Shown: positions 5,098 to 54,375 of the stretch, piece after piece
How positions within the stretch are numbered: position 1 is the stretch's first letter
Layout of the letters: each line of letters opens with the position of its first letter
DNA from: Candidatus Altimarinota bacterium
GTDB lineage: Bacteria; Patescibacteriota; Gracilibacteria; BD1-5; JAGOOR01
DNA: 64,000 bases
Assembly (NCBI GenBank): GCA_023268615.1
Contig: JALQUC010000011.1
Coordinates: 3,040 to 67,039 of the forward strand
Direction of reading: 5' to 3'
Notes under the pieces: generated by a model
Databases searched by the model: none
What the model was told of the DNA's origin: nothing
The model's input: only the letters and a program-made list of their open reading frames with translations
Made by a program: the position numbers and the translations under genes

Positions 5098-7329
5098 TTA
5101 TACTTTTGAGAGAGGGGCGATGCGTATGTTGAGACTCTTTATGCCGTTTCAAAACGCTATTTGAGCGACATCACCCGTCAGTGATACGATAGTTCCGACA
5201 CCAAATTTTTTGTGCTCTACACGATCACCAAGGGAAAAATTATTCATGTTGCGTATCTGGGCTCCGAGTCAGAGTTTTTTTTCTGTTTGTGGCATATTTG
5301 ACCAGTCACCCTCGAGATCTGATTCTCCAGATGTACCCAGAAAATCTGTCATAAAGAGTCTCTTTGGAACATGAATTTCTGTATATTCTCATGGTATTTC
5401 ACCGACGAATCTACTCGCAATATTGCTCGCATAAGTCCCAAAACTATATCGTTCATTTGCTCGGGTGATGACGAGTTTTTTCTTTGCTCGAGTCATCGCG
5501 ACATACCAGAGTCTTCGTTCTTCTTCGAGTTCATTTGGCTCAAAGAGTGTTCGAGAATGGGGGAATATTCATTCTTCTGCTCCTGCTATGATAACATGGT
5601 CAAATTCGAGTCATTTTGCACTATGTATGGTCATGAGGAGGACTTTTTCAGAGCCATCGTCATTGTTTTGCTCAGCTGTGATGAGGGCTATATCCTCGAG
5701 AAAATGCATGAGCGACTCAGCTGGAGGTAGATCATCATATCTGGATGCGAGATTTTTGAGTTCGTTTATATTTTCTACTTTTGCCTCTACTTCTGGGGGA
5801 GAGAAATTTTCTTCCAGATATTCCTGGTATTTAATGAGCTGTAGGACTTTATCTATGAGGAGTCTCGCAGGGATCTCGTGAGATGTTTTTTGTATTTCTC
5901 TCATCATCTGAGTAAATCCTGTAATCGCTCATCGTGCAGCTCACTTCATTTCTGGTATATGGTCAATATGCGTTGTGCCCTCTAGGTGTTCCAGTGTGCT
6001 CTGATTTCACTTACTTCTCGGGAGATCGAGTGACATATAATCAATTTCATTTTCTCCCACATATTTCATGATTCTCTCGACACTTGTTGGTCCTATTTTT
6101 CGTGGAGGAGTGTTCACAATTCTCTTCCATGCGACACTGTCCGTGGGTGTCATGATTACTTTGAGATAGGCTATGATATCCTTGATTTCTTTTCTGTCGT
6201 AGAATTTGAGTCCGCCAATTATTTCATAGGGTACGCCTCGTCGTATCAGAGCTTCTTCTATGACGCGTGATTGTCCATTGGTGCGGTAGAGTATTGCCCA
6301 GGATGCTGGATTTTTCTCAACAAAATTTCCTATTTTATCCGCTTCTTCTCTCTCGCTTGTACATTCGTGGATTTGAATTTTTTCTCCTTCTTCTGCCTCG
6401 GTCCACATTCTCTTATCGAGGGCTGATTTATTATTTTTTATGACGACATTTGCAGCGTTGATGATGGTGCTACTTGAGCGATAATTCTGCTCGAGTTTCA
6501 CGACCTCTGCTGCCGGGAAATCGTGTTTGAAATTGAGGATATTTGCTATATTTGCACCACGCCATGAATAGATGCCTTGCCAATCATCACCGACGACACA
6601 GAGGTTTTTTGATTTATTTGCGAGGAGCTGGATTATCTCATACTGTATAGAATTTGTATCCTGGTATTCATCCACACAGAAGTATTGAAATCTATCCTGG
6701 AAATATTCCAGCACCGATGAGATGTGTAATACATCACGAGTTTTGAGCAATATATCATCGAAATCGAGTGCATTATTGGCTCGCATTTTTTTCTCATAGT
6801 CGGGATATATCTCTGCTACTATTCCCTGAAAATGGCTCTCCGCAGTATGTGCATAGTTATCTGGAGAGAGTCCACTATTTTTTGCCAATGATATCTCATA
6901 CTGGACTTGCCGTACTGGTGCATCTTTGGGATCTATTCTCTTACCATCTATTATTTCCTTGATGACCGAACGCACATCGTCCTCATCGTAGATCGAGAAA
7001 TTTCTCGAGTAGCCGATTTTATCAATAAACAGTCTCAAAAACATGACACCCATTGAGTGAAATGTAGATACAAGAGGGAAGTCACGCGGTATTCCAAATG
7101 ACATTGGCATGTCCCGTCCGAGCTTCTTTGCAATTCTCTCGCGCATTTCACGAGCTGCTTTATTGGTAAAAGTCACACACAAAATAGAAGTCGGTGCAAT
7201 CCCTACTTCATGTATCATAGAATATACTCGTTCTGTGAGAGTATGAGTCTTTCCAGAACCAGCACCCGCCAGTATGAGCAGAGGACCATCTATGATAGAC
7301 ACGGCACGGAGTTGTTCACTATTGAGCAT
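5098..7329 (-). CDS. pcrA: ATP-dependent DNA helicase PcrA/UvrD
   Basis: 743 aa after codon-walking through 8 TGA codons. Motifs AGAGSGKTHTLTERV, VDEYQDTN, SAKGLEFDHVII, VAMTRAKKKL and a C-terminal GDRVEHKKFGVGTIV domain. TAA at 5098. Confidence 0.92.
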
Positions 7330-13398: not shown

Positions 13399-16377
13399 CT
13401 ATGTTTTTGTTTGAGGAGTATCTGCTGCCGGTGTTTCTGCTGTGTCTTCTGGTACCGGCATTTCTGCAGCATCTTCTGGCACACTCTCTCCGGTGATACC
13501 GAGTCGTGCCTCGATTTCCATATCGACATATTGTTTCTTGCGGCCGTACATCTTTCGAGAATATTCCTTGATGATTTGAGCTGCACGATCATTGCGATAA
13601 TAGTTGTCCCAGATGGTCTTGATATCAAATGGTCTGGTAGAAGCATTATCGATATTGAGCTTACAATAAGTGGTATAGTTTGCGATACCGATGATGTCCT
13701 GCTGAGAGAGAGTAGGGGCGTATTCTTTTTCGAGATACTCTGCATCCTCAGCACCGACCTTAAATGACATAATGGTTCCCACATTTCCGAAGACGGCTTC
13801 TTTGATACTCGGCTTACCTGTACTCTTGTATTTCTCACCTGATCCTCCTATCTGAGCGATGAACTGGTGAGCCATGATGAGCGCGAGTCTGTATTTACGA
13901 GCTTCTGAGAGTATTTCTCAGAATGTATCTGTCGCAAAATTCTGAAACTCATCGACATAGAAGAAGAAATCTTTTCTGTCCTTTTCTGCGACATCAGCAC
14001 GACTCATGGCTGCGAGATTGACCTTTGAGACAAAGACGAGACCGAGAAGCTGAGCATTGAGGTCACCGATTTTACCCTTTGAGAGATTGACGAGGAGACA
14101 GCGCTGATTGTCCATGATCTCTCGGATATTAAATGCTGATTTTGGCTGACCGATGATATTACGAATCGTTGTATTGGTGATAAATGGTCCAAATTTCGCA
14201 GAAAAGTACGGGATCATCTCCTGTTTTTCTCGGTCACCAGTTTGTGCGTATTCATGATCCCAGAATGCTTTGACGACAGGATTTTTTATCTTACTCATCT
14301 TGTATTTGAGGAATGATTCATCGACGAATAATCGTGGCACATCTATGAGCGTCCCGCCGTCTTCTTCATCATCCATGAGTGTGAGAGCACCATTACGGAA
14401 ATAGTGCTGGATACGAGGTCCAAATATCTCATCACCAAATATCTTGATAAATATAGAAGTAGCATCGAGAGAGGCACGGTCTTTTTCGAGTGCACGCAGG
14501 TCTGGGTCAGTCGAGATGACCTCGAGCATATTGAGACCCATAGGCCGCTCGTAATCCGAAGGATCAAATATCACCATATCACGAGCGCGGTCTTTTGGGG
14601 TAAAAGCGAGGATATCCTCGATGAGGTCACCGTGTGGATCGATGACTCCGAGACCTTCACCATTCCAGAGATCTTGGCGGGCGAGATATCCGATGAGGAC
14701 GGATTTACCTCCTCATGATTTACCGATGATATAGTGATGACGGCCGCGATCTTTTTTCTCGAAATAGATAGGCTGTTTCTTGTTTCTGTATTCATTCCAC
14801 CCGAGCAGTACTGATTCCTTGTATACAGGGAATCCTCCGAGCATTCTCTCCTTTTCTTCTGATTTTGGGAGCTTGCCTTCATCAATTGGCTGACCTCGTT
14901 TGTCACCGTCTGTTTGGAGTGGTATTTCTACACCCTCAGCTGTGAGGAACCCGTCATTGGCTCCGCGTGCGATGTTGCCGTATTTGTCAGTCTTGAGACG
15001 AGTACCATCTTCTGTGACGATGTATTCGCCATCACGGACATAGTCGACCATCAGGAGCTTTTCTTTTGGAGTTTTGAGATTGGATGGAGGAGCTACCTTC
15101 TTGTACCCGAGCCAGTAGATGATAGGGGATTTGTTATAGTTTACATCAGGGAAGTGGTAGAGTGTGGTGAGTTCATCGACACTATAGGGGCTCATACGAG
15201 TGACAAATCCTGCGAGCTTGAATTGAAATGCCATCTTGTGTAGGAATCGTATCAATGGTCGAAACATACCCTCGAGAATCTGATTATTATCGAGATTGTT
15301 GCAGTATTCGTTCGTATAGACACTTGTGGACGCGAGCATACTGTCGATACCATTTTGAGCGGCTTCGTCTGAATCGCTGCCTACGAGCACGAGCATACTG
15401 GCTTCAAATGCATTTTGAGCCGCATTCTCACCCACCATCTTTTGTGCTTCTTGTTCTGCTTGATTAAATATCTTGTAAGAGTCACCACCAGATGCACCCA
15501 TAGGATTCTCATCTGGTTTGTTTTGGACGAAATTGGTGACTATCCATCCGAGAGGAGCGAGGAGTTTGCCCACGAGTCACCACGAGAGAAGCCATGAGCC
15601 ACCACGATTGTATTTGCCTTTACTGTATTCTGAGGCGACTTTTTTTGCCTTCTTATTATATCTATGGGAGAGTGGTTTTGCGACGACCTGGAATACCGCG
15701 ACATCAGTCTGTTTGAGCCCACCAAATACATTGGTAAAAGTCGTGAGCGGATCTTCTTCGAAATATTTGTAGGTCTTGATAGGGAAGTATCGGTCCTGAT
15801 CCTTGCGAAAGCTCGTCGTACGAACGACAGAATGCTGGTCCTGAAATGTGATATAGTCTTTCTTGTCTCGGATGACGACCTCTGCGTCGGGATAGATCGA
15901 GGTAATAGTCTGATTGATAGTCGGGAACAGATCACGATAGGTGACGATAAAGAAAAATACTTGCCCTTCTTTATAGATAATCTCGTAGGAGAACTTGATA
16001 TGATTGAATATCGCATTCAGAACAGTGTATTTGAGTGAAGTGCTCGGTACTTTCCAGATAGAATTATGCACGAGACTCATGATGCCGGCCTTTTCCTTGA
16101 AGTCTTTCTTCGTCTCATGTTCTTTATCCAGTTTTGAATCAGAACGAGGGACAGATACCTGGATATACACGAGGTATCGTGCGAGCCAGAGCTCGAGGAG
16201 GAGTCGTACTATCCAGCGAATGACGAAAAATGCGACAATCGCACCGATGATGAGGAGAAGTATCTCCATGCCAGACATACCAGAAGATGCAGTATTGACC
16301 ACTTCTTGAACCGGTGTCATATTTGGGAGTACTTCTGTTGGTTTTTGTATGAAAATGCTTTGTGCCATATCTTGCAT
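13399..16377 (-). CDS. type IV secretion coupling-protein-like ATPase (VirD4/TraG/TraD, HerA-FtsK superfamily)
   Basis: 992 aa from four track ORFs in one frame, joined at TGA 15577, 14713 and 13918. N-terminal TM segment, Walker A IIGKS-G(TGA)-GGKS, Walker B FFYVDEFQNF, and SEARKYRLALIMAHQFIAQI. Confidence 0.7.
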
Positions 16378-16569
16378 ATATAATACGCGAGAACACCCTT
16401 GTCTGCAAATACTTTTTGGCATAAAACTCACACAATCTTTACACAAAACTGAAAAAATCAGTATAATAGACCTGTTTAGTGTTAATCGTTGTTCGTAAAT
16501 CGTTGAGTTTCAAAAGTCTCAACAATAAACTATTAACCATTAACTATAAACAAATTTGTTCCTTTACAT

Positions 16570-17002
16570 GGGGGTGACCGGCTTCTATCGGCGCCTTGTG
16601 GAATCATCTTTGCTTTTCGCACGATGTCTGTATCGGGCGTTATCACCAAAACAGACAAAATCTAAGTGCTAAAACACTTTCTTTCGGAGGTCTCGCTCGC
16701 GTAAAAGCGGCATTCTCTCCAGCTGTCTACGCCTAGTGCGATTCAGTAGTCACTTTCCTTCGGGACGACAGAGCAATTGCTCGTGATAACCTCAAACACG
16801 GTGCAGAGGAGGCTCGTTTGTTGTAATAAATTCTCCTTTCGTTATTTTAGGGCTGATAGGCCGCTATCATATCGTATCTTGTCTATCACCGAAGTGTCTT
16901 TTTCGTTTGGCTTACCCGACACTTCGTATTAAGCCAAACTATAAAAGTAGACGGGATGGTACACTCGCTGAGACATGGGTTCGATTCCCATCACCTCCAC
17001 CA
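16570..17002 (+). ncRNA. ssrA: tmRNA (SsrA)
   Basis: 5' GGGGGTGACCGG pairs with 3' ..CACCTCC-A-CCA, giving the G3:U70 wobble. tRNA-like T-arm GGGTTCGATTCCC. Candidate tag ORF 16668-16736 (AKTLSFGGLARVKAAFSPAVYA, TAG stop). Confidence 0.9.
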
Positions 17003-20112: not shown

Positions 20113-21545
20113 AAGCTTCAAATGATCCTTTCCATCCTCTCACAGAATTCTTCTAAATCTGCGAGATGGATATGTTCACGAGTTGTGTGCATGTCATGGC
20201 AAGTGGCTCCGATGGAGATCCACTCAGTGTCTGGATATTTCTCTGCGAGGGTGCCGACTTCGACGGTTGCGTGTGTCGTCACAGCGGGGATTTTTTTACC
20301 ATTGACGGATTCTATAGCAGTCAGGATTTTTTCTACAAAAGGGGAGTCTGTATCGGCGAGATAGACAGGGGTTTCATGGCTAAGCTCAAAGTTGATTTCG
20401 TTAATCCCGTTTCACTCGTTAATCCCGTTAAATGAGGAGAGTATTTTTTGTTTCATTGGCTCTATACCTCACGGGATATTTGTACGGATGAAGTAGCACC
20501 ATTGGAGTGTACCATCTACGAGCTTCATCTTGCCGAGATTCCATGAGGAGAGAGCGATGTTATCATCTCACCAGATCTCTACGCCTGAGTCGAGCGAGAC
20601 AAATGTATGGAGGATATGCTTTTCATGAAAATCTCCATCATGCTCTGTTTCTTCGATGGTTATTTCGACTTTTGTATTGTCTGTTCGTGTTTGGATTTCG
20701 AGCGTTTTTTCTCGTGCCCATTTATGGAGCTCGTCTCGGTCTCCTCGGAAGAGGATTTTTGCGTGTGCACTTCGGGGGATAGCATTATCAGCATCACCTC
20801 CGAGGATCTCTCCTACACCCTCGATATCCTCTCGTTCTGTGAGGATTTTTGCCAGCTCGATGAGTGCATTGCCTCGATTTTCGACTATTTCTACCCCCGA
20901 GTGTCCTCATCGCATGCCTGCTATTTTTATTGAATAAGTTTCTCCATTATTCATTCGTCATTTGTCATTCGTCATTTGGAATGAGCCTTCCATAAGCAGT
21001 GTTCCTCCACAGCCTATGCCAATACTTGTACTGTCAGACCAGTCGAGATTTATGCCATAAGGGGCGGTGATAGGGAGTGTGATATAGTGTGCTCATACGA
21101 GTCAGACTTCTTCGCCCATCGTGAAGAGGAGCTCGAGATCTGGCCTCTCTGTCATCTCTGCTACTGCCATCATGAGGGCTACCCCGATACCATTATCCGC
21201 TCCGAGTGTCGTCCCATTTCCTTTCCAGATTCCATTTTCTTCAATAACCGTCACACCTTCAGTCTCCCAATCATGCGGTTCTCTGGACACGCAGACCATG
21301 TCCATGTGACTCTGTAAACATAATTTGGACAAGTTTTGAGTTTTGAGTTTTGAGTTTTGAGTCGTTGCTTGAATCAGTAAATTGCCGATAGCATCTTCCT
21401 TATACTCCCAATTATGGGATTTTGCCCATGATATGAGCCATTGTCTGACCTTTTCCTCTTGGTGGGATTTTCGGGGGATCCGAGACAATTCTTTGAAATA
21501 TGTTAGTGTCTTGTCGAATACGCTCATAGGCTTGATTTTATTCAT
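20109..21545 (-). CDS. pepD: aminoacyl-histidine dipeptidase (PepD, M20 family)
   Basis: 478 aa with 7 TGA. Motifs LQSHMDMV, GTTLGADNGIGVA, FTMGEEVG, GMRGGHSG, DADNAIPRS and GATCHDMHTTREHI. Contains three short tandem-repeat patches. Confidence 0.85.
20400..20429 (+). repeat. two copies of GTTAATCCCGTT at 18-nt spacing inside pepD
   Basis: Minus-strand AACGGGATTAAC x2 encodes NGINEGNGINE. Confidence 0.85.
20951..20978 (+). repeat. (TCATTCGTCATTTG)x2 tandem duplication inside pepD
   Basis: Two perfect 14-nt units. Encodes ..QMTNDKGRMN... Confidence 0.85.
21333..21360 (+). repeat. (GTTTTGA)x4 heptanucleotide repeat inside pepD
   Basis: Four perfect units. Encodes ..TQNSKLKTQNL.. on the minus strand. 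Confidence 0.9.
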
Positions 21546-32887: not shown

Positions 32888-33865
32888 TTAGAAGAGATTA
32901 AGTCATACGAGTTCTACGAGAAGCGTGTATGAGAGTATGAGGAGTATCGTGGCAAAGAAAGTGTAGAGAATTATTTTTTTACCCTTATCAGCCCGTTCTT
33001 CATCTCCTGCTGCAGTGATGTAGTAGTATGACCCTATGATAATCGTGACGATAGCAATAGGTCCTGCCATAAAGAGGAAGAAATTTGCTCCTGCTACGAG
33101 TACACTGATGATGCCTGTGGTATTGAGCGTTCTTCAGAAGAATATAGCACGATAGATAGATTCGATAAATCCGACTATCACGAGAGCAATAGTTCCATAG
33201 ACGAGTCTCATTTTTGCAGTTTTTGATATGCCTTCATCTTTTCCTCAGAGGAGCATCGTAAATCATCCCCAAGTAAACATGACAACGGCTGTTCCAATCA
33301 TCGCCATTTCGAAAAATTTTACTATAGCAATCACACTACCATTTCCCCAGAAATTCTGTGGACAGAAGAAATAGTTACATGTTTCGAGAGCTGATTGGCT
33401 GAATTCTCCGCCCGGATCTCGTGTCGATATTGATCATACTTTACGACTAAAACCACTCGTCAGATAGCCACTTCCAGTGAATATACGATAGAGGAGCTCA
33501 GCGACATTGATCAGAAATAGTCCTATAACTATGAGGAGTATCCGATACATTCCATCACTGCGCTTTTCTTCACTTCCCATGCTGCTGACCCAGAGGAAAC
33601 CAACATAGAGCATAGCGAGGAGTGCTACACCATTGAGGATTATCCGGACAGCTTGGATAATATCAAGAGCGACATTTCTCACAGCTCATACGAGATCTCC
33701 AGAACCAGGGCGGAAGAGCGAGTTATCTGCGAGATTACGAGTACTGCTCGTGGCATTACCTATTCCTGTGACGCCAGCTGCCCATGAGGTATTCATTATG
33801 AGTACGCAGACACAGAAGAGTATGTGTGGTGCAAATTGACGAATGTTTTTGATAAAATAATGCAT
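32888..33865 (-). CDS. membrane protein made of three tandem T4SS pilin-like TM-hairpin modules (paralog of 12483..13397)
   Basis: 325 aa, codon-walked with 6 TGA and no TAA/TAG. The three loops are ..WVSSMGSEEKRSDG.., ..LLG(TGA)GKDEGISKTAK.. and ..ITAAGDEERADKGKK.., each flanked by TM helices. Confidence 0.65.
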
Positions 33866-38248: not shown

Positions 38249-39631
38249 TTAACTCCATTTATCTATATATTTTTCGACATCAAATTTTTTCTTCATTCCG
38301 CCGAAGGTCATAGAGCGTACGAGACCGTAGTGTGTTTTCTTTGGCGGAAAGGGTCTATCGTGTTTCCCAAAACACCAGGCAATACCAGTGTAGCCGTTTG
38401 GACTACATCCATCAATTGCGTAGGTATCATTGAGATAGACACCGATTCAGTAGGCTTTTTTCCAGTCTCGGAACCACCGCAAAAGTTGTTTGCCCCAATA
38501 CATACGGACATAGCCGTGGATTTTTCCTGTTCTGACGAGCTCATGTTGTGCAGCGTTCCAGAGTGGATCTTCTGTTCTGCCGTGCTTCAGATCATCGAGT
38601 GAATATTCGTTTTGTGTCAGAAGGGAAGTCTGCTTTTCTCGGTCTTCGTCGAGAGTTTTTATGACCCAATCGGGGAGACAGTTCCATTGATCCGGATGCT
38701 TCTCATAGTACCACATGTTGATGGCGAGTTCTCGTCGGACGAGACATTCTTCGAGAAAGCCAATGAGAGAAGTTTCAAGTTTTGAGTTTCAAGTTTTGAG
38801 TTGACTGCACTCGTGATATATCTGGAGTGGTGATATGCAACCAAAGTGGAGATAGGGGGAGAGCAGGGAAGTATTTTCTTCGTTTGGATTTTTCCTGGCT
38901 GTGTCATAGTAGGGGAGTTTCTCTTTTTTAAAAGTATTCCAGTGCTTCTCAGCATGCGACTCTCCTCCGATAAATTTATTTGCATTTCCACAGCTTATAT
39001 CAGTGAGCTCAGAGAGATACTTTTTATACCAGGATGATTTTGCTACTTTTCATAGATCGTCGTGAGTTTGTGTACATTCGACTTTTTCAGGAGATATGTT
39101 TCTTTCTGGTGTCAGCATTGTGACAGTATTCCAGTATTTTTTTCTGAGCGTATAGGCACCGTATTCGACATGGTCGCTGGCTATCCACGGAGGCAGGAGG
39201 CTCGCATCATCGACGAGAACTATGGGGAGAGAGAGTGTGTCTCCAAAATGTGTCAAAATATCTCGAAAATATCGGACATAGGTCGCACTCGCGACTATCA
39301 TCCCAATATCATTTTTTTTGACTATTTTCTCGATAATTTCTCGAGTTTTTCCATAGATGACTGATAGTGTGAGGCCTGCGTCATGGTATGATGTTCTGAG
39401 TTCATCGATTGATTCGATGAGGAAAATAAGCTGACGAATATTCTCGTGCTGATATTCGTTATCTATGGTGATAAGGGGGATGAGTTTTTGTTTTTTCTGA
39501 AGGGCGTATTCACTCGCATAGGCGAGACCACAGTTCCACTCTGTACGAAGTGCTCATTCGGTCCAATAGAGGATATTTCAGCTCTTGTACTGCGCATCAT
39601 TCAGATGTTGTATTCTGCGAGAATCAAACAT
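38249..39631 (-). CDS. phr: class II CPD photolyase
   Basis: 460 aa with 5 TGA. Motifs LVRRELAINMWYY, DPLWNAAQHELVRTGKIHGYVRMYWGK, NDTYAIDGCSPNGYTGIAWCFGKHDR and MTFGGMKKKFD. Confidence 0.85.
38771..38803 (+). repeat. (AGTTTCAAGTTTTG)x2 repeat inside the photolyase gene
   Basis: Two 14-nt units plus a partial unit, carrying the GTTTTGA / GTTTCAA motif. Encodes ..SQLKTGNSKLETS... Confidence 0.85.
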
Positions 39632-41641: not shown

Positions 41642-41902
41642 TTATTTCCTATCTTTCCAATTCCACCATTTGAGGAGTTCTGGGTCGCGTTTCTCGGGAG
41701 GAGTATCGGCGAAATAGACCGCACAACGGAAAGTGTAGAGCAGGCAAGGATCTTGCACGCTTCATCGCAGTTTATTCACCATTTCATAGATGACCTCGGG
41801 ATTCTGTCCTCGTAAATCCTCTACCTCTATAAAACCCATCTCTACTAAATCACGGGCGATGACTTTTCAGATTCAGGGGATTTGGAGGAGAGGGGATTTC
41901 AT
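41642..41902 (-). CDS. helix-hairpin-helix protein (Cdd1 / pathogenicity-locus family-like)
   Basis: 86 aa with 3 TGA: ..LQIPG-I-GKVIARDLVEMGF..DPCLLYTFRCAVYFA..LLKWWNWK. Confidence 0.55.
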
Positions 41903-41903
41903 T

Positions 41904-43169
41904 TTATAGACCATTTATAGCTAGATACAAATCACTTGCCATTCTTCTAAGAGGATTTCGTTCTTTTTCATAATTTTTGTAATTATCACGATTTTCTTGA
42001 GACCAATTTCTAATCGTTACCCACCCATTTTCTGTTTTAATTCTTACATATTTTTCTTGCTCAAGTCTTCATCTAATTTTTTGGAGGGTTTGAGCTCGTA
42101 TAGTTCATAAGTTGTACTCTCTGCATATATCTGATATTCCTTTGAGATAAAAGAGCAATTTTTCTGGTGTTAAATCCATTGTTCAAATATTATGCTTTAT
42201 AGGATTCCTCAATTGCTTCTTTTGAGACTTATCAAATAAATGCTCTATGTGACTAATAGACCAAGAGAGTATCATGTTGATATCATTCAGTAAGTAGTAT
42301 GCATTTTCTATATTTTTTGCTCCTTTTATTCCATATTTTTCGGTGTATGTTTGTAGTTTCTTAAAGTTATTATGACCTACAAAACAATATACCATCAGAA
42401 ATGATTTCCATCGTAGTTCTGATCAGAGAGCGTGACGCAAATTATCAATTTTTCTTTTGTAATTTTCTCGTTCCAACCGTATTTTTTTATCAATCACTCC
42501 TCGTGTTTTATCTCAGAAAAATTCTTTTGTTTTTACTCTTCTTTTTTCAACAATTGTTTTGAGTATTTCTTGAGTTTGAGATACAGAAATAGAGGAATTA
42601 CCAATGACTATTTTTTGTTCACTCTGACTTGCAACTCCACCAATAATACTCCTCAAATCGCCAACCAATTTTGGTAAGAGTACATTTGCAATAAGAATCA
42701 AAGATTGTTTGAGAATATCATCTTTTTGCCCATTCAAAAGGGCTTCTCTTGTTTTTTTATGTTTTATTTCCTGGCTTTCATAGTGTTCTAGTAGGTTTCT
42801 GAGTTCACTCAAATATTTAAAATGCTTTTTAAATTCTTCCCAACTGTTATAACAACAGAAAAAATGCCGTTTTAATCAGAGAAATAAAAACGCAAAGTCT
42901 TTTATAACATATTGATATTGACTTGTGAGAGGATCGAGCTCTTTATTTTTAAATCGAATTGTAAAAGGAATATGCCCTGTTTCATGTGAAAAGTTTTTAT
43001 CTTGTTCTTCTAGTAAACTGTAGAGTTTTTTACCTTGTTTGTTGTTTTTGATTCCTTCACGAAAACATTCATCAATTGCAGCACTTGTAAGATCTATGAA
43101 ATAGCGTAACTGATGACGAAAGTCTCGGTTTTCAAATAAGTTATGGAGAAATATATACCCTTTTTTCAT
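41904..43169 (-). CDS. hypothetical 421-aa protein with two RNxxxH (HEPN-type) motifs and a wHTH-like tail
   Basis: Track ORFs 42876..43169, 42513..42812 and 42183..42395 plus the 41904..42179 segment share one frame, separated only by TGA. Motifs LSELRNLLEH (aa 124-129) and QLRNPIKH (aa 321-326). About 27% GC by hand count of one 60-nt line. Confidence 0.55.
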
Positions 43170-43206
43170 AAGAGTATTGTATTTCTTTTGTGATTAATAA
43201 AAGAGA

Positions 43207-43306
43207 TTGAGGAACCCCTCAAAAATGGGTTACCTCAAACCCCCGAATATGAGGAGACAAGGAAACAGCTGCTTGAGGAACCCCTCAAAAATGGGTTACC
43301 TCAAAC
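43207..43306 (-). repeat. CRISPR-like mini-array: two identical 34-nt direct repeats around a unique 32-nt spacer
   Basis: TTGAGGAACCCCTCAAAAATGGGTTACCTCAAAC occurs at 43207-43240 and 43273-43306. The spacer is CCCCGAATATGAGGAGACAAGGAAACAGCTGC. The minus-strand repeat reads GTTTGAGGTAACCCATTTTTGAGGGGTTCCTCAA. Confidence 0.45.
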
Positions 43307-43310
43307 AGAT

Positions 43311-43346
43311 ATTTGAGATATACCCATTTTCAAGAGGATTCAAGAC
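43311..43346 (+). repeat. inverted, degenerate copy of the 34-nt repeat (anti-repeat-like)
   Basis: ATTTGAGATATACCCATTTTCAAGAGGATTCAAGAC aligns to the reverse complement of the repeat. About 25 of the first 26 positions can pair, counting G-U pairs and one bulge. It lies 4 nt from repeat 2. Confidence 0.45.
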
Positions 43347-43405
43347 TTGTGGACTTACGGTAAACTGCCGATCTTGATTCCGTTATGTGTTTTCCTTCCT
43401 ATTTT

Positions 43406-45553
43406 CTAAATCTTCTGCAATCCGATTCGTCCTTTGTCATTATCGACTTGGATGACTTTTACATGGACTTTGTCTCCAGTGTTCACGACATCTTCGACGC
43501 GTTCAACTCGTTTATCAGAGAGTTTGCTAATATGGATCATACCAGATTTGCCACCACCGATTTCGACGATAGCTCCGACACCTTCGAGGATTTTCACGAC
43601 TTCACCATCGAATTCTTGACCGACTTCGATATCACGGACGATATTTTCGATAGCTTTTTTCGCACCTTCACCAGCTTCTTTGCTTGGACCAGTGATGACG
43701 ACTGTTCCATCGTCTTCAATGCTGATTTCTACGCCGAAGTATTTCTGCATGTCCTGAATAGTTTCACCACCTTTACCGATGACCATACCGATTTTCTCAG
43801 GATTGATCTTCATAGAGATGAGTGCAGGAGCATGAGGAGAGACTTCCGGACGAGGCTTCTCGATAGATTTGAGCATACCCTGGAGGATAAATTCTCGAGC
43901 ACCTTTTGCTTGTTCAAATACTTCTTTGACGATATTGAGGCTGAGTCCATCGATTTTTACATCGACCTGGAGAGCAGTGATACCTTTACGAGTACCAGCG
44001 ACCTTGAAATCCATATCTCCGAGGAAATCTTCTTGAGCCTGGATATCAGAGAGGACGACATATTTTCCTGTCTCATCATCGTATATCATACCCATAGCGA
44101 CACCAGAAACAGGAGCTGAGATAGGGACACCAGCATCCATGAGAGCGAGTGTCGATCCACAGACTGAACCCATAGAGCTCGAGCCATTACAGGTGTGGAC
44201 TTCTGAGACGACACGGACAGTGTAGCCGAATTCTTCTACCTTTGGGAGGACAGGAACGAGCGCTTTTTCAGCGAGATTTCCGTGACCGACTTCACGACGA
44301 CCGACTCCACGCATAGCTCGGACTTCACCGACTGAGTAAGGAGGGAAGTTGTAGTGATGCATGTAACGACGCTCGTATTCTGGATACATACCCTCGACGA
44401 GTTCATTATCGAGAGGTCCACCGAGAGTGGCAATAGAGAGTACTGATGTGACACCTCGACGGAAATGACCTGAACCATGTGTGAGAGGGAGGAGACCCAC
44501 TTCTGTCATGATAGGGCGTACTTCGTCACCTTTGCGGCCATCTAGACGACGACCAGTAGCGAGGACATTTTTACGCATGATTTTTTTCACATATTTGTAG
44601 ACCAGTTCTCCGATTTCGTTGCCGTTCAATTCTTCGGTATCTTCTGTGTAACCGAGTGCTGTTTTTGTTTCCTCTATGAGATGCTCGAGAGCATGGTGAA
44701 AGTCGATTTTACCGATATTATAGAGCGCTTCGATTTTTTCTGGAGAGAGTGTGGCAAAGACCTTTTCTTCGAGACCTGCAATGCCAGCACGGGTATCGAG
44801 ATCCATCTTTGTGATAGGGTATTTCGCATTCACTGTTGCGACGAAGTCTTTCTGCGCTGCAGAGAGATCAGCGAGGACCTTCTGAGCGTATTCAAATCCA
44901 CGCATCACCATCTCTTCACTTGCTTCTTTTCCACCCATTTCGACCATCGTGATAATCGATGAAGTACCAGCGACGACGAGCTCATAGAGAGCGTTATTTA
45001 TTTCTTCAAAGGTTGGATCAAATATCATACCACCGTCTTCCATGACCGCGAGACGGACACCAGAGACGGAGTCCTCAAACTGATGAACACCAGCAAGCTG
45101 GAGAGCGATGCTCGCACCTGTGATACCCCAGACACCGAAATCTTGTTTACCAGTCGCAGAGTAGATAGTTGGGATTATTTGGACTTCGTTTGTAGTGCCT
45201 TTTGGGAACATCGGACGGATAGGTCGATCGATGAGACGAGAGTTGAGAATAGCAGAAGTCGTCGGACGAGCTTCACGCTTGTTAAAACGTCCACCACCGA
45301 TATGACCTGTCGCGTAAAAACGCTCTTGGTAATCAACGGAAAGAGGGAAGAAGTCTGCTCCTGGTTTGCCTTTTTTGCTCACACCAACGGTCGTGAGGAG
45401 GACGTGACCAAGAGAATCCTTGATAGTGACAGCACCATCGATGAGGAGGGCAAATGAACCAGTCTCAAAGGTGTAGGTCTTACCAGCGATAGTATAAGAC
45501 TTTGAAATCGGAGTAATCTCTCCGACGTTATTGTCGCGAATACCTGAAATCAT
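43406..45553 (-). CDS. pnp: polyribonucleotide nucleotidyltransferase (PNPase)
   Basis: Uninterrupted 715-aa ORF with two RNase PH domains, then KH and S1 (..GKGGETIQDM.. / ..GAIVEIGGGKSGMIHISK..). Confidence 0.95.
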   Translation of the reverse strand: MISGIRDNNVGEITPISKSYTIAGKTYTFETGSFALLIDGAVTIKDSLGHVLLTTVGVSKKGKPGADFFPLSVDYQERFYATGHIGGGRFNKREARPTTSAILNSRLIDRPIRPMFPKGTTNEVQIIPTIYSATGKQDFGVWGITGASIALQLAGVHQFEDSVSGVRLAVMEDGGMIFDPTFEEINNALYELVVAGTSSIITMVEMGGKEASEEMVMRGFEYAQKVLADLSAAQKDFVATVNAKYPITKMDLDTRAGIAGLEEKVFATLSPEKIEALYNIGKIDFHHALEHLIEETKTALGYTEDTEELNGNEIGELVYKYVKKIMRKNVLATGRRLDGRKGDEVRPIMTEVGLLPLTHGSGHFRRGVTSVLSIATLGGPLDNELVEGMYPEYERRYMHHYNFPPYSVGEVRAMRGVGRREVGHGNLAEKALVPVLPKVEEFGYTVRVVSEVHTCNGSSSMGSVCGSTLALMDAGVPISAPVSGVAMGMIYDDETGKYVVLSDIQAQEDFLGDMDFKVAGTRKGITALQVDVKIDGLSLNIVKEVFEQAKGAREFILQGMLKSIEKPRPEVSPHAPALISMKINPEKIGMVIGKGGETIQDMQKYFGVEISIEDDGTVVITGPSKEAGEGAKKAIENIVRDIEVGQEFDGEVVKILEGVGAIVEIGGGKSGMIHISKLSDKRVERVEDVVNTGDKVHVKVIQVDNDKGRIGLQKI

Positions 45554-49936: not shown

Positions 49937-51817
49937 TTATTTCTTCTTCAAGATATCAATAAATGTCTCACTTGGGATAGATACTTTTCCAAATTCTTTC
50001 ATTTTCTTTTTACCTTTCTTTTGTTTATCAAGGAGTTTGTTTTTTCGAGTGACATCACCTCCATAGAGATATCCTGTCACATCTTTCCTGTATGCATTAA
50101 TGGTCTCACGGGCGATGACTTTTGCACCAATAGCCGCCTGGATGGGTATAGAGAAGAGTTGTTTCGGGATAGCTTCCTTCAGCTTGCCACAGAGCTCGAT
50201 GCCGACATGAAATGATTTACTTCTATGAGTAATCGTTGAGAATGCTGAGATTCGCTCGTTATTCACTAGGATATCTATCTTTACGAGGTCGTCTCGCTTG
50301 TAGTTCAATTGTTCGTAGCTCATACTCGCATAGCCTGATGAGCGAGATTTTAGCTCATCATAGAAATCGGTGATGATCTCTGCCATCGGTATCTCGTAGG
50401 TCAGGATTGAGCGAGTTTCGTCGATGTATGCCTGATTTTTGTAGATACCACGATGTTCCTGGGCGAGCTTCATCATCTCTCAGACCATATCAGAACGGGT
50501 GATGATCTCGAGTTTCACTATTGGTTCCTCTATCCACTCATAGGTTCCTGGCTCTGGGAGATTTTCAGGATTCTTGATCCAGAGGCGGGTATAGGTTTTT
50601 TCACCTATTTTCTCTACTTGGAGAGGAGTATTTTTGAATTCATGGCTGTGATCTCCAGGCATCATAACTTGATAGGTGACTTGGGGGCTCGTGAGGATGA
50701 CATCAAGGTCAAATTCTCGATCAAGTCGCTCCTTGACTATCTCCATATGCAGAAGTCCGAGAAATCCACAACGAAATCCATGTCCGAGAGCGGGGGAGAC
50801 TTCGTGTTCATTTGTCAGGCTACTGTCACTCATCTTGAGTTTCTCGATATCTGTTTTGAGCTGATTGTAGTCTTCTGTATCGACAGGGTAGACACCAGCA
50901 AATACATAGGGAACGACTTTTTGGAATCCTGGAATAGGGTGCTTGTATTCAGGTGCACCAGCAAAAATAGTATCACCGACGCGAGCTTCTTGCAGTGTCT
51001 TAATCCCTGTGACTATGTAGCCTATTTCTCCTGTCTTGAGAGAAGGAAGTGGATGATATTCTGGTTTGAAACAACCTACCTCGAGGACATCGACAACGGT
51101 GTCTGTACTCATGAGTGTGATTTTATCACCTCGTTTTATTTCCCCAGAAAACAGCTTGATGTAGATGACGACACCACGATATGAATCGTATTGAGAATCA
51201 AATATGAGACCGAGCTTGACGGAATCTGGGATTTTTCAGGCTGCATTGTTGGTGATTATTTCTCCTCCGGCTCCGACTGATCGTGGCTCAGGAATTCGCT
51301 CGACGATGGCATCGAGGACTTTGTCGACATTGGTCCCTACTTTTGCTGAGACGGGTATGATATCTGCTTCATCACAGCCTATGAGTGAGACGATTTCTCT
51401 CGTGACTCGAGGAATGTCTGCACTTGGGAGGTCAATCTTGTTCAAAACGGGAATAATCACGAGATTATGCTCGATGGCCATGTAGAGATTTGAGAGCGTC
51501 TGTGCTTCGATACCCTGAGTCGCATCGACCACGAGGACGACTCACTCGACTGATGCGAGACTTCGAGAGACTTCATACTGGAAATCCACATGACCTGGCG
51601 TATCGATGAGATTGATTTCATTTCCTTTCCAGGACATCCGCACTGGTGTGAGCTTTATTGTAATTCCTCGCTCTTGCTCTATCTCCATAGTGTCGAGCAT
51701 TTGGCTGTTTTTCATTTCGCGCTTTTCCTTGGTTCCGGTGAATTCGAGCATCCTATCTGCAAGGGTTGATTTGCCGTGATCGATATGCGCAATGATTCAG
51801 AAGTTTCGGATAGACAT
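49937..51817 (-). CDS. lepA: translation elongation factor 4 (LepA)
   Basis: 626 aa, junctions codon-walked (5 TGA). Motifs [28 protein letters not shown] and [14 protein letters not shown], plus a C-terminal LepA domain. Confidence 0.93.
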
Positions 51818-53427: not shown

Positions 53428-54375
53428 TTATCTCTTCCAACGAGCGTATACTCCTGTTGTAATACTTCTCTCGCTCGCGGTTTCCTGTATGCCGAGCTCG
53501 CCATGTTCTATCGTGCCTGCGGGGAGTATGTCGGCGAGGATATTTGCCAGCGTTGTTGAAAAAATACTTGAAGCATAAGTATTCACGAGGAAGAATAGGG
53601 GATCTGGAGAGATGATTCTCTTGATACTCTCGAGGAGGAGAGGAAAAGAAGTATCGAATTCCCATTTTTCACCATTGGCTCCATGACCAAATACCGGAGG
53701 ATCCATGATAAATCCATCATAAGTATTTCATCTGCGCGCTTCTCGTTCGACGAATTTCACCACATCCTCGAGTATCCATCTGATAGAATCATCGGGCAAG
53801 CCTGAGAGTTCCATGTTTTTCTGAGCCCATCCAATGGTTGGTTTTGATCCGTCGACATGTGTCACTCTCGCCCCCTCCTTTGCACAGGCTATTGAGGCTA
53901 TACCAGTATAGGCAAAGAGATTCAAGACCTTAATCTCTCTAGAAGTTTTGAGTTTTGAGTTTTGAGTTTCTAGTTGAGGAATCTTTAATAATCCGCTATT
54001 ATTCATTTTTCATTTTTCATTTTTCATTGAAGTGCGTAGAACTTGTCTAGTCCAATCCCAATGAAGAGCCTGCTCGGGAAATACTCCTACATGGCGATAA
54101 GGTGACCATCGGCACTGCCAAGAAAGATCGCCATAGGACATCACCCAATCTCGGACATCGTCCGGTGTCTTCATCCATTTTCCTTGCCCACCACCACTTT
54201 TATCAAAAAATGCATCCCAATTCCAGTCTTTTTGATTTCTGGTCCAGAGCGCCTGAGATTCTGGTCGTGCTATTTTAAAACTTCAATAACGCTCAAATTT
54301 CATACCATCTCCAGAATCGAGGAGTTCGTAGTCTGGATAGGATTTGAGGAGGAGATGATTTGATACAATGGTCAT
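53428..54375 (-). CDS. class I SAM-dependent methyltransferase (RlmI/PF10672-like)
   Basis: 315 aa. Motifs HVGVFPEQALHWDW, VLNLFAYTGIASIACAKEGA..VTHVDGS and FIMDPPVFG. A low-complexity insert is encoded by two heptamer repeats. Confidence 0.75.
53945..53972 (+). repeat. (GTTTTGA)x3 plus one degenerate unit inside the methyltransferase gene
   Basis: Encodes ..QLETQNSKLKT.. on the minus strand. Confidence 0.9.
54004..54028 (+). repeat. (CATTTTT)x3.5 heptanucleotide repeat inside the same methyltransferase gene
   Basis: Encodes ..MKNEKGKMNN... Lies 31 nt from the GTTTTGA repeat. Confidence 0.9.

What the first reader, a model, noticed from the sequence alone, without database searches (positions are those of the whole stretch)
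43207..43346. CRISPR-like mini-array (34-nt repeat, 32-nt spacer, 34-nt repeat) with an adjacent inverted anti-repeat-like copy
Two identical 34-nt direct repeats (43207-43240 and 43273-43306) flank a unique 32-nt segment. That segment resembles neither flank, so the geometry is repeat-spacer rather than tandem duplication. On the minus strand the repeat starts GTTTGAGG and contains a TTGAGG/CCTCAA hairpin. Four nt beyond repeat 2 lies a degenerate inverted copy (43311-43346). It could pair with about 25 nt of the repeat, as a tracrRNA anti-repeat pairs with a crRNA repeat. If co-transcribed it would form a natural hairpin-plus-guide RNA. The element sits between the pnp stop and the start of a dual-RNxxxH protein gene, all in the same orientation. 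No recognisable cas gene is nearby, so if functional it would be an orphan or undescribed RNA-guided or regulatory module.
Basis: seen in the sequence. Interest (0 to 1): 0.85.

Follow-up and report, generated by a model that had tools for sequence, protein, structure and literature searches.

The report
Minimal CRISPR-Cas13an locus with leader hairpin
The two repeats are a real one-spacer CRISPR array of an already published miniature RNA-cutting enzyme (Cas13an), read in a genome where TGA codes for glycine, and the "anti-repeat" is most likely a known kind of leader hairpin that silences the surplus first repeat.

Summary
Two identical 34-nt repeats (36 nt with one mismatch), a 30-nt spacer and a degenerate inverted copy 4 nt away lie between pnp and the next gene, all on the minus strand.

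The interpretation "orphan, no cas gene, tracrRNA-like" is not supported. The genome uses TGA as glycine (code 25, Candidatus Gracilibacteria). Read that way, the downstream gene is one 421-aa protein with two RNxxxH motifs. It is 92.6% identical to Cas13an9 of Yoon et al. 2024, and its 36-nt repeat is the published Cas13an9 repeat.

Three related lineages keep the repeats and flanks but carry different spacers. The window's spacer matches three phage contigs 30/30, antisense to a phage gene.

The inverted copy forms a 26-bp hairpin with the first repeat (-36.5 kcal/mol) and fully displaces that repeat's own hairpin. It is invariant despite dS of about 0.2 and stronger on the transcribed strand. 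This fits the leader-repeat hairpin that blocks extraneous crRNA in type VI systems (Migur et al. 2026). That paper found no obvious example in Cas13an systems, and I found none in three other Cas13an loci, so this lineage is a modest new instance.

No experiment supports the function here.

The parts
43406..45553 (-). pnp (polynucleotide phosphorylase, 715 aa), the conserved upstream neighbour; not part of the cassette
   Evidence: ORF. Pfam RNase_PH/PNPase/KH/S1 on the orthologue in L004/L005. Homology to relatives that lack the cassette ends at the pnp stop.
43307..43405 (-). CRISPR leader (99 nt). The pnp-proximal half varies; the last 52 nt before R1 are invariant in three lineages
   Evidence: Alignment of the window, L004, L005/6 and L007. 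Neutral divergence dS is 0.19-0.26 in the adjacent gene. No sigma-70-like promoter or canonical terminator was found.
43311..43344 (-).
   Evidence: Alignment score 27 against a shuffle maximum of 21. 31 pairs with R1, 5 of them G.U. -36.5 kcal/mol on the minus strand against -24.6 on the plus strand. In Boltzmann sampling R1's own hairpin is open in 100% of structures, against a mean of 5-11% with shuffled leaders.
43271..43306 (-). Repeat R1 (36 nt, GTTTGAGGTAACCCATTTTTGAGGGGTTCCTCAAGC), leader-proximal. This is the 'extra' repeat that would give an extraneous crRNA
   Evidence: Identical to the published Cas13an9 repeat. Its own hairpin is -17.2 kcal/mol.
43241..43270 (-). Spacer (30 nt, AGCTGTTTCCTTGTCTCCTCATATTCGGGG as transcribed)
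   Evidence: Exact 30/30 matches in three IMG/VR viral contigs. It is antisense to a phage ORF, in frame PEYEETRKQL. The spacer differs in L004 and L005/6.
43205..43240 (-). Repeat R2 (36 nt, position 35 G->T), the repeat that would form the single crRNA with the spacer. Followed by TCTCTTTTAT it looks terminator-like
43170..43204 (-). 35-nt segment between the array and the cas13an start codon, invariant in all lineages
   Evidence: Four Logan contigs break 63 nt upstream of the ATG, i.e. inside the last repeat.
41904..43169 (-). cas13an (421 aa in code 25, six in-frame TGA = Gly codons); close orthologue of Cas13an9
   Evidence: All six in-frame stops before the first TAA are TGA. 390/421 identical to MBP7823504.1. 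hhalign against nine other Cas13an-family sequences gives probability 97.6%, E 3e-12. dN/dS is 0.14-0.21.
42783..42800 (-). HEPN1 catalytic motif R124-N-L-L-E-H129
   Evidence: Translation. It aligns with the invariant R/H of the family.
42192..42209 (-). HEPN2 catalytic motif R321-N-P-I-K-H326
   Evidence: Translation. R321, N322 and H326 are invariant in the 25-sequence family alignment.
41642..41914 (-). Cdd1/HhH-like gene (90 aa), the conserved downstream neighbour that marks the other edge of the cassette
   Evidence: Pfam PF11731, E 4.8e-26. Homology to L017 resumes at 41907.

Best explanation
This is a complete, minimal type VI 'ancestral' CRISPR-Cas13an cassette of about 1.5 kb. It is inserted between pnp and a Cdd1-like gene in a Candidatus Gracilibacteria genome that reads TGA as glycine.

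All parts lie on the minus strand: a 99-nt leader, repeat R1, one 30-nt phage-derived spacer, repeat R2, 35 nt, then cas13an (421 aa, two RNxxxH HEPN motifs).

Inferred from the published family: the array is transcribed in the direction of cas13an. Cas13an binds the hairpin of R2 and trims the spacer 23-24 nt upstream of it with its HEPN site. The resulting spacer-then-repeat crRNA guides cleavage of the complementary phage mRNA, plus collateral RNA.

Because crRNAs are spacer-5'/repeat-3', R1 has no spacer of its own. It would only yield an 'extraneous' crRNA made from leader sequence. The inverted degenerate repeat copy in the leader pairs with the first 26 nt of R1 across a 4-nt loop and abolishes R1's own hairpin.

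Most likely this keeps Cas13an from loading on R1, as shown experimentally for Cas13b leader-repeat hairpins.

Shown here: the anatomy, the genetic code, the homology, the spacer variability, the phage matches and their polarity, and the hairpin's thermodynamics, conservation and strand bias. Inferred: transcription, processing, RNA cleavage and the blocking role.
For: - **Genetic code.** TGA aligns with invariant Gly in LepA (positions 92, 446) and PcrA (positions 573, 587) of solved homologues. Most window genes carry in-frame TGA.
- **Effector.** It is 92.6% identical to Cas13an9. The profile match to nine other Cas13an-family sequences has probability 97.6% with both HEPN motifs aligned. 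dN/dS is 0.14-0.21.
- **Repeat.** It is identical to the published Cas13an9 repeat. The 66-nt period matches the Cas13an2, Cas13an3 and SpCas13an arrays and the 36+30 stated in the paper.
- **CRISPR behaviour.** The window and L007 have 1 spacer, L004 has 2 others, and L005/6 has 2 others, between conserved repeats and flanks. Degenerate repeats lie on the cas13an side, so the leader is on the pnp side.
- **Targets.** The window spacer hits three viral contigs 30/30. The first L004 spacer hits one contig 29/29. In both cases the phage coding strand carries the complement of the cas13an-sense spacer. The phages also look TGA-recoded.
- **Hairpin.** Energy is -36.5 kcal/mol, z = -7.5. P(R1's own hairpin fully open) is 1.0, against a mean of 0.05-0.11 for shuffled leaders, with 0-2 of 100 reaching it. 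There are no changes in 52 nt across lineages with dS 0.19-0.26. It is 12 kcal/mol stronger on the transcribed strand, and all 5 imperfect pairs are G.U there.
- **Not a pnp element.** The hairpin is absent downstream of pnp in the close relative L017, which carries an Mrr-type nuclease gene in the same slot.
- **Mechanism precedent.** Migur et al. 2026 (PMC13187072) and Yoon et al. 2024 (PMC12165695).
Against: - No transcript, processing or activity data exist for this locus. I could not learn from the text whether Cas13an9 itself was active in the published E. coli assay, because the results are only in figure images.
- The three lineages show no variation in the hairpin, so there is no covariation support.
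- Migur et al. state that ancestral type VI systems have no obvious leader-repeat hairpin. Cas13an2, Cas13an3 and SpCas13an indeed lack one. The element is therefore lineage-specific and could be a recent accident.
- In equilibrium sampling of the whole 236-nt intergenic RNA, the freed 3' half of R1 pairs with the 5' half of R2. R2's own hairpin then forms in only 7% of structures. A simple 'R1 blocked, R2 free' picture needs co-transcriptional folding or protein binding.
- Foldseek of the AF2 model (pLDDT 76.6) found no PDB match.
- No promoter was identified.
Confidence: 0.85

Rival explanations
1. The array and cas13an are real, but the inverted copy is a functionless relic: a decayed repeat left by an inversion or snap-back duplication when the array came to lie upstream of cas13an in this lineage.
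For: It is found only in the Gracilibacteria lineage, the only one I saw with the array upstream of the gene. It is absent from three other Cas13an loci. It shows no covariation. Published work says ancestral type VI systems lack such hairpins.
Against: There are zero substitutions in 52 nt among three lineages whose synonymous divergence is 0.19-0.26 per site, while the pnp-proximal half of the same leader has substitutions and indels. All five imperfect pairs are G.U on the transcribed strand and would be A.C on the other, a 12 kcal/mol asymmetry. A decaying DNA relic should show no strand preference.
Confidence: 0.2
2. The hairpin serves transcription or RNA turnover, not ecrRNA control. 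It could be a 3' stabiliser or terminator of the pnp mRNA, or part of an attenuator. In the attenuator version the chain is: leader pairs with R1, R1's 3' half pairs with R2's 5' half, and R2's 3' mini-hairpin plus U-tract then sets read-through into cas13an.
For: It lies 60 nt after the pnp stop on the same strand. The full-length fold shows the domino pairing, and the 3' half of R2 followed by TCTCTTTTAT scores as terminator-like.
Against: The leader-R1 stem is not followed by a U-run. The close relative L017 has pnp followed by only about 25 nt and no such element, so it belongs to the cassette and not to pnp. The element is a copy of the CRISPR repeat, which a pnp terminator has no reason to be.
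Confidence: 0.12
3. One reading: a tracrRNA-like anti-repeat that pairs with the repeat to make a natural hairpin-plus-guide RNA for an undescribed, cas-less RNA-guided module.
For: About 26 bp of anti-repeat:repeat pairing is real, and a duplex that long would be an RNase III substrate (general knowledge).
Against: A cas gene is adjacent and belongs to a family shown to work with a single crRNA and no tracrRNA. In that family the spacer lies 5' of its repeat, so the spacer pairs functionally with R2, not with the hairpin-forming R1. Other Cas13an loci have no anti-repeat. The published Cas13an9 construct omitted the leader.
Confidence: 0.03
4. Not CRISPR at all: a chance duplication or a REP-like dispersed intergenic repeat.
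For: There are only two repeat copies. The repeat is palindromic, as REP elements are.
Against: There are no other copies in the window and none in GTDB genomes or JGI metagenomes. Spacers differ between strains at the same locus. Phage protospacers match exactly. The sequence is identical to a published CRISPR repeat.
Confidence: 0.01

Closest known systems
CRISPR-Cas13an, 'ancestral type VI' (Yoon et al., Science 2024, PMC12165695); specifically orthologue Cas13an9 (MBP7823504.1, contig JAGNIE010000069, Candidatus Gracilibacteria)
   Same: The protein has the same 421-aa length and is 92.6% identical. The 36-nt repeat is identical, with a 30-nt spacer. Synteny is the same: pnp, array, cas13an, Cdd1-like gene. 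There are no other cas genes in cis. Spacers match dsDNA phages.
   Different: It is a different strain or species (dS about 0.19). It has one spacer instead of two, and the spacer is different. The last repeat has G35T. Residue 355 is Gly (TGA) instead of Trp (TGG). Unlike most Cas13an loci, this lineage has the array upstream of the gene.
Leader-repeat hairpin that blocks extraneous crRNA in type VI-B/Bt/E/F/H/I systems (Migur et al., EMBO J 2026, PMC13187072), and the analogous type II-A leader stem-loop, cited there as Liao et al. 2022
   Same: The crRNA has the spacer-repeat configuration. Leader sequence directly upstream pairs with the first repeat and out-competes the repeat's own hairpin. 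The geometry is 36-nt repeat and 30-nt spacer.
   Different: That study reported no obvious leader-repeat hairpin in ancestral type VI systems. Here the leader arm is an almost full-length inverted copy of the repeat (26 bp + 5 bp, 4-nt loop), longer than needed. The array has a single spacer. Function is untested here.
Cas13b (type VI-B) crRNA and repeat
   Same: The repeat is 36 nt and forms one long hairpin, and the crRNA has the spacer 5' of the repeat (stated). From memory, the PspCas13b repeat shares the motif TTTTGAGGGG; this is a lead, not a test.
   Different: Cas13b is about 1100 aa with a separate processing site. Cas13an is about 420-580 aa and uses the HEPN site for processing as well.
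tracrRNA anti-repeat of type II / V-B / V-E systems
   Same: A sequence complementary to the CRISPR repeat is encoded next to the array.
   Different: Here it lies in cis, 4 nt from the repeat and on the same transcript. No Cas9 or Cas12 is present. The effector family needs no tracrRNA.

Membership tests
CRISPR array | Direct repeats of 23-55 nt separated by unique spacers of similar length | tested here: met
   Two 36-nt repeats (one mismatch) and one 30-nt spacer. This is the minimum possible number of repeats.
CRISPR array | Spacers differ between related strains while repeats and flanks are conserved | tested here: met
   Five different spacers in three lineages at the same locus.
CRISPR array | Spacers match mobile genetic elements | tested here: met
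   30/30 in three IMG/VR contigs and 29/29 for an L004 spacer. Three other spacers had no exact hit.
CRISPR array | Not a dispersed repeat | tested here: met
   Two copies in the window. None in genome contigs or metagenome contigs.
Cas13an (ancestral type VI effector) | Sequence homology to published Cas13an proteins | tested here: met
   390/421 identical to Cas13an9. hhalign probability 97.6%, E 3e-12, over 381 columns against nine other family members.
Cas13an (ancestral type VI effector) | Two Rx4H (R-N/H-xxx-H) HEPN motifs in one small polypeptide (about 420-580 aa) | tested here: met
   RNLLEH at residues 124-129 and RNPIKH at 321-326, in 421 aa. R, N and H are invariant in the 25-sequence alignment.
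Cas13an (ancestral type VI effector) | Adjacent co-oriented array of 36-nt hairpin repeats and about 30-nt spacers; no other cas genes in cis | tested here: met
   The neighbours are pnp and a Cdd1-like gene. No Cas1/Cas2/Cas9 domains among ten large unassigned ORFs of the window; this check was not exhaustive.
Cas13an (ancestral type VI effector) | Intramolecular HEPN dimer with rearranged helix order | tested here: inconclusive
Cas13an (ancestral type VI effector) | crRNA-guided RNA cleavage and HEPN-dependent pre-crRNA processing | not testable with these tools
   Shown for Cas13an2 and Cas13an8 in the paper. Not shown for this protein.
Type VI leader-repeat hairpin (ecrRNA block) | System whose crRNA is spacer-5'/repeat-3', so that the first repeat is the extra one | tested here: inconclusive
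   Stated for Cas13an. Here it is supported only indirectly. The repeat orientation matches other Cas13an arrays. Protospacer polarity fixes the transcribed strand. Degenerate repeats lie at the cas13an end.
Type VI leader-repeat hairpin (ecrRNA block) | Leader within 180 nt pairs with the first repeat and opens all pairs of the repeat's own hairpin, more than shuffled leaders do | tested here: met
   P = 1.000 with 60-, 100- and 180-nt leaders. Shuffled leaders give a mean of 0.05-0.11, and 0-2 of 100 reach the observed value.
Type VI leader-repeat hairpin (ecrRNA block) | Conserved among related systems | tested here: inconclusive
   Invariant in three lineages with dS about 0.2, but with no covariation. 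Absent from the Cas13an2, Cas13an3 and SpCas13an loci.
Type VI leader-repeat hairpin (ecrRNA block) | Prevents Cas13 binding and processing of the first repeat | not testable with these tools
   Shown for PgiCas13b only.
tracrRNA / anti-repeat guide system | Separately expressed RNA with an anti-repeat, required by a Cas9 or Cas12 effector | tested here: not met
   The effector is a Cas13an, which works with crRNA alone. The anti-repeat is in cis, 4 nt from R1, with no promoter or terminator of its own detected. Other Cas13an loci have none.
Intrinsic terminator of pnp | GC-rich stem followed by a U-tract, conserved downstream of pnp in relatives | tested here: not met
   No U-run follows the leader-R1 stem, and the scan does not call it. 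L017, L015 and L016 lack the element after pnp.

The most novel reading that the evidence does not exclude
The near full-length cis anti-repeat may be more than a passive block. Together with the register-shifted pairing between R1 and R2 and the terminator-like last repeat, it could act as an RNA switch. That switch would couple read-through from pnp to crRNA and cas13an output. Alternatively it could yield a fixed leader-derived guide, complementary to the repeat, that lets Cas13an autoregulate its own pre-crRNA and mRNA. Either would be a regulatory use of the extraneous crRNA in the smallest known Cas13, in a TGA-recoded CPR bacterium with no adaptation genes nearby.
Probability: 0.07. Interest if true: 0.6.

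Novelty: new member of a known kind. Interest (0 to 1): 0.3.

Why it matters
The finding is mostly explained by existing work. It is a strain variant of the published Cas13an9 system, so it does not open a new class.

Its value is in three points:
- It shows how a real cas gene disappears under the wrong genetic code. Table 11 cuts it into fragments, the longest of 120 codons. That is a practical warning for CRISPR annotation in Gracilibacteria and Absconditabacteria.
- It gives natural evidence that the smallest Cas13an lineage is in use. Spacers turn over between strains, exact phage protospacers have the polarity expected for RNA targeting, and the gene is under purifying selection.
- It supplies a clear leader-repeat hairpin in the one type VI subtype where the 2026 survey saw none. 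Other Cas13an loci use a hairpin inside the leader instead. This suggests the two solutions to the extraneous-crRNA problem can swap within one subtype.

It also offers a compact construct (leader + R1 + spacer + R2 + a 1.27-kb gene) for testing that idea.

Tried and rejected
- Pfam, PADLOC and a PDB sequence search of the 421-aa protein gave nothing meaningful. The family is not in those libraries.
- Rfam gave no CRISPR-DR or other credible hit in the intergenic region, only sub-threshold noise.
- The genome-contig scans for the repeat, for the window protein and for Cas13an2 all came back empty.
- The metagenome-contig scans with the protein and with a 23-nt repeat core were both empty. No more-divergent orthologous loci could therefore be obtained for a covariation test.
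- Single-sequence AlphaFold failed (pLDDT 36). The MSA-based model was acceptable, but Foldseek against PDB found nothing.
- Logan contigs carrying the gene all break inside the last repeat and add no spacer information.
- Exact searches for three other spacers in IMG/VR found nothing.
- I looked for the Cas13an9 leader in the supplementary datasets of Migur et al. The held copy appears to be cut before the ancestral-subtype rows, since even the Cas13an2 repeat is absent. I therefore cannot say whether they analysed this locus.
- My first Boltzmann-sampling script was faulty and returned all zeros (uniq_ML was not set). One search should be disregarded in favour.
- Considered and rejected: code 4 (TGA = Trp), as used by the database copy P0001. 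Conserved Gly positions in LepA and PcrA settle it as code 25.

Full report
**1. The observation**

TTGAGGAACCCCTCAAAAATGGGTTACCTCAAAC occurs at 43207-43240 and 43273-43306, 66 nt apart. It occurs nowhere else in the window with up to 3 mismatches, and no shuffle gave any match. All flanking genes are on the minus strand: pnp at 45553..43406 and an ORF starting at ATG 43169.

On that strand the repeat reads GTTTGAGGTAACCCATTTTTGAGGGGTTCCTCAA. Extending by two bases gives 36-nt units: R1 at 43306..43271 ends in GC and R2 at 43240..43205 ends in TC. The spacer is 30 nt (43270..43241).

The inverted degenerate copy at 43311-43346 is significant. Its alignment to the reverse complement of the repeat scores 27, against a maximum of 21 in 200 shuffles.

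**2. The genetic code and the neighbouring gene**

Under table 11 the region below 43169 is a string of short ORFs. In the frame of the ATG, however, the first six stops are all TGA, and the first TAA is at 41906. Most ORFs of the window carry in-frame TGA.

TGA aligns with invariant glycines in solved homologues:
- LepA positions 92 and 446 (...VEG..., ...YVG...)
- PcrA positions 573 and 587 (KGLEF, EEGIFPH)

It never aligns with Trp. The code is therefore 25, which agrees with the NCBI label 'Candidatus Gracilibacteria bacterium' on the closest relative.

Read this way, 43169..41904 encodes one 421-aa protein with RNLLEH (residues 124-129) and RNPIKH (residues 321-326). Pfam, PADLOC and a PDB sequence search do not know it.

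**3. Identity**

Yoon et al. 2024 (PMC12165695) describe Cas13an, an 'ancestral' type VI effector. Its reported features are:
- a size of about 420-580 aa
- adjacent arrays of 36-nt repeats and 30-nt spacers
- no other cas genes in cis
- a crRNA with the spacer 5' of the repeat
- HEPN-dependent processing 23-24 nt upstream of the repeat

Their Table S3 lists Cas13an9 (MBP7823504.1, JAGNIE010000069, 421 aa). Their oligo list gives its repeat as GTTTGAGGTAACCCATTTTTGAGGGGTTCCTCAAGC, which is identical to R1.

The window protein is 390/421 (92.6%) identical to Cas13an9 in code 25. It matches a profile of nine other Cas13an-family sequences with hhalign probability 97.6% and E 3e-12. Both HEPN motifs are aligned. 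The catalytic R, N and H are invariant in a 25-member alignment.

An AF2 model built with that alignment is confident (pLDDT 76.6, pTM 0.79). Foldseek finds no PDB neighbour, as the paper itself reports for this family, so the fold test is inconclusive.

**4. Behaviour as a CRISPR locus**

Contigs carrying cluster members give three lineages with the same synteny: pnp, array, cas13an, Cdd1-like gene. One search shows the arrays:
- The window and L007 are identical, with one spacer.
- L004 (the Cas13an9 contig) has three repeats and two other spacers.
- L005/L006 have three repeats and two further spacers. Their second repeat has 3 mismatches and their third, cas13an-proximal repeat has a deletion.

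Degenerate repeats at the cas13an end place the leader on the pnp side. cas13an is under purifying selection, with dN/dS 0.14-0.21 and dS 0.19-0.26.

The window spacer has exact 30/30 matches in three IMG/VR contigs. In L001 the protospacer lies in frame (PEYEETRKQL) at the end of a 156-codon ORF. That ORF is on the same strand as Erf, NinG, methyltransferase and tail genes. A variable base just upstream falls on a third codon position in the three phages.

The first L004 spacer hits another phage contig 29/29, again with the complement on the strand that carries the terminase-like and portal-sized ORFs. In both cases an RNA transcribed in the cas13an direction is antisense to phage mRNA, as RNA targeting requires. 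The phage contigs also gain long ORFs when TGA is read as sense.

The repeat is not dispersed. It was absent from 185,579 species-representative genomes and from JGI metagenome contigs.

**5. The cassette and its site**

Relatives with about 90% identical pnp lose homology to the window exactly at the pnp stop (L015, L016, L017).

In L017, homology resumes at the Cdd1-like gene (window 41907). The interval instead holds a 406-aa Mrr_cat restriction-endonuclease-domain protein (PF04471, E 5.5e-25) and a small opposite-strand ORF.

The leader, array and cas13an therefore form a cassette of about 1.5 kb in a variable, defence-type slot. The inverted copy belongs to the cassette, not to pnp.

**6. 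The 'anti-repeat'**

As minus-strand RNA, the leader arm (43344..43311) pairs with R1 in 31 pairs: 26 contiguous apart from one bulge, plus 5 outer pairs, around a 4-nt loop. The energy is -36.5 kcal/mol and z = -7.5. The repeat's own hairpin is -17.2 kcal/mol.

The same DNA transcribed the other way folds 12 kcal/mol worse, because all five imperfect pairs are G.U on the minus strand.

The last 52 nt of the leader, the repeats and the 35 nt before the ATG show no change among the three lineages. The pnp-proximal leader half does vary. With a tree length of roughly 0.35 synonymous substitutions per site, about 18 changes would be expected in 52 neutral sites.

Migur et al. 2026 (PMC13187072) showed the following for type VI systems with spacer-repeat crRNAs:
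- The leader pairs with the first repeat.
- This prevents Cas13b binding and processing.
- It thereby suppresses an 'extraneous' crRNA that would compete for the nuclease.

I used their criterion: the Boltzmann probability that all pairs of the repeat's own hairpin are open. The window scores 1.000 with 60-, 100- or 180-nt leaders. Shuffled leaders give a mean of 0.05-0.11, and 0-2 of 100 reach the observed value.

The same authors say ancestral type VI systems have no obvious leader-repeat hairpin and instead have hairpins within the guide part of the ecrRNA. My analysis of Cas13an2 (L012), Cas13an3 (L013) and a Sphingopyxis Cas13an (L014) reproduces that. The probability is about 0, there is no inverted copy, and a leader-internal hairpin abuts R1.

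The Gracilibacteria lineage, which also has the array upstream of the gene, is therefore an exception within its subtype. I could not check whether they analysed it.

**7. Caveats**

- Nothing here is experimental for this locus.
- There is no covariation.
- No promoter or canonical terminator was identified in the leader.
- In equilibrium sampling of the whole intergenic RNA, the 3' half of R1, freed by the leader, pairs with the 5' half of R2. R2's own hairpin then forms in only 7% of structures, against 55% when the transcript starts at R1. The simple blocking model therefore needs kinetics or protein binding. A regulatory role remains possible, since the 3' part of R2 plus TCTCTTTTAT is terminator-like.
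- The text does not say whether Cas13an9 was active in the published assay.

**8. Verdict**

The CRISPR reading is right. The 'orphan, undescribed, tracrRNA-like' reading is not.

The locus is a close variant of a published system, and the hairpin is an instance of a published mechanism in a subtype where it had not been noted. The novelty class is a new member of a known kind, and the interest is low to moderate.

Noticed in passing
whole window; e.g. 41904-43169, 5098-7329, 49937-51817: The genome reads TGA as glycine (code 25). Table-11 ORF calling fragments most genes, including the cas gene, into pieces that look like non-coding DNA. The large protein database holds the window's Cas13an translated with Trp at those positions (P0001), and holds 70-97-aa fragments of it as separate 'proteins'.
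   Followed up: yes
window 41908-43405 versus L017 221-1860 (CAYXTY010000102.1): The interval between pnp and the Cdd1-like gene is a variable defence slot. A close relative carries an Mrr_cat restriction-endonuclease-domain protein (406 aa) plus a 120-aa opposite-strand ORF where the window has the Cas13an cassette. Two other relatives (L015, L016) have unrelated DNA after pnp.
   Followed up: partly
window 43241-43244; L004 arrays: Three of the five spacers in this clade end in GGGG (or GGGGTTT) next to the 5' end of the following repeat, so their protospacers begin with CCCC on the phage sense strand. This may be a footprint of the unknown, trans-acting spacer acquisition machinery, or a targeting preference. 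The two spacers of the decaying L005 array lack it.
   Followed up: no
L001 5740-6181 and L095 181-614: The window's spacer and a spacer of the Cas13an9 strain hit related phages at equivalent places, each about 190 nt upstream of a homologous small ORF (MYTPTEQELIEMGF...). The two host lineages seem to have acquired spacers independently from the same phage region.
   Followed up: partly
window 42105-42107 (codon 355 of cas13an): This codon is TGA (Gly) in the window, TGG (Trp) in Cas13an9 and CGA (Arg) in L005. The other five TGA codons are conserved in all three lineages. In L005 the HEPN1 motif is RTILEH (N->T) and two of its three repeats are degenerate, which may indicate a decaying copy.
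   Followed up: partly
window 43170-43222: The 3' half of the last repeat followed by TCTCTTTTATTAAT scores as an intrinsic-terminator-like site just upstream of cas13an. A TACAAT box sits 8 nt before the ATG, and there is no visible Shine-Dalgarno sequence. This suggests a separate, possibly leaderless, cas13an transcript.
   Followed up: no
L012 4545-4586, L013 4486-4526, L014 4448-4488: In three other Cas13an loci, the roughly 40 nt directly upstream of the first repeat fold into their own hairpin that abuts the repeat. This matches the published remark that ancestral type VI systems have hairpins in the guide part of the extraneous crRNA.
   Followed up: partly
window 13399-16446 (minus strand) and 16570-17002: A 1015-aa ORF with a P-loop (GKSGGGKS) has no Pfam hit at E<1e-6 and lies next to the tmRNA gene. 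A T4SS-pilin-domain protein is encoded at 32888-33865. These may be conjugation- or secretion-related genes; they do not look like cas genes.
   Followed up: no
window 21332-21362, 38770-38802, 53944-53975: Short tandem heptamer runs (AGTTTTG / AGTTTCA) recur at three separate places in the window.
   Followed up: no
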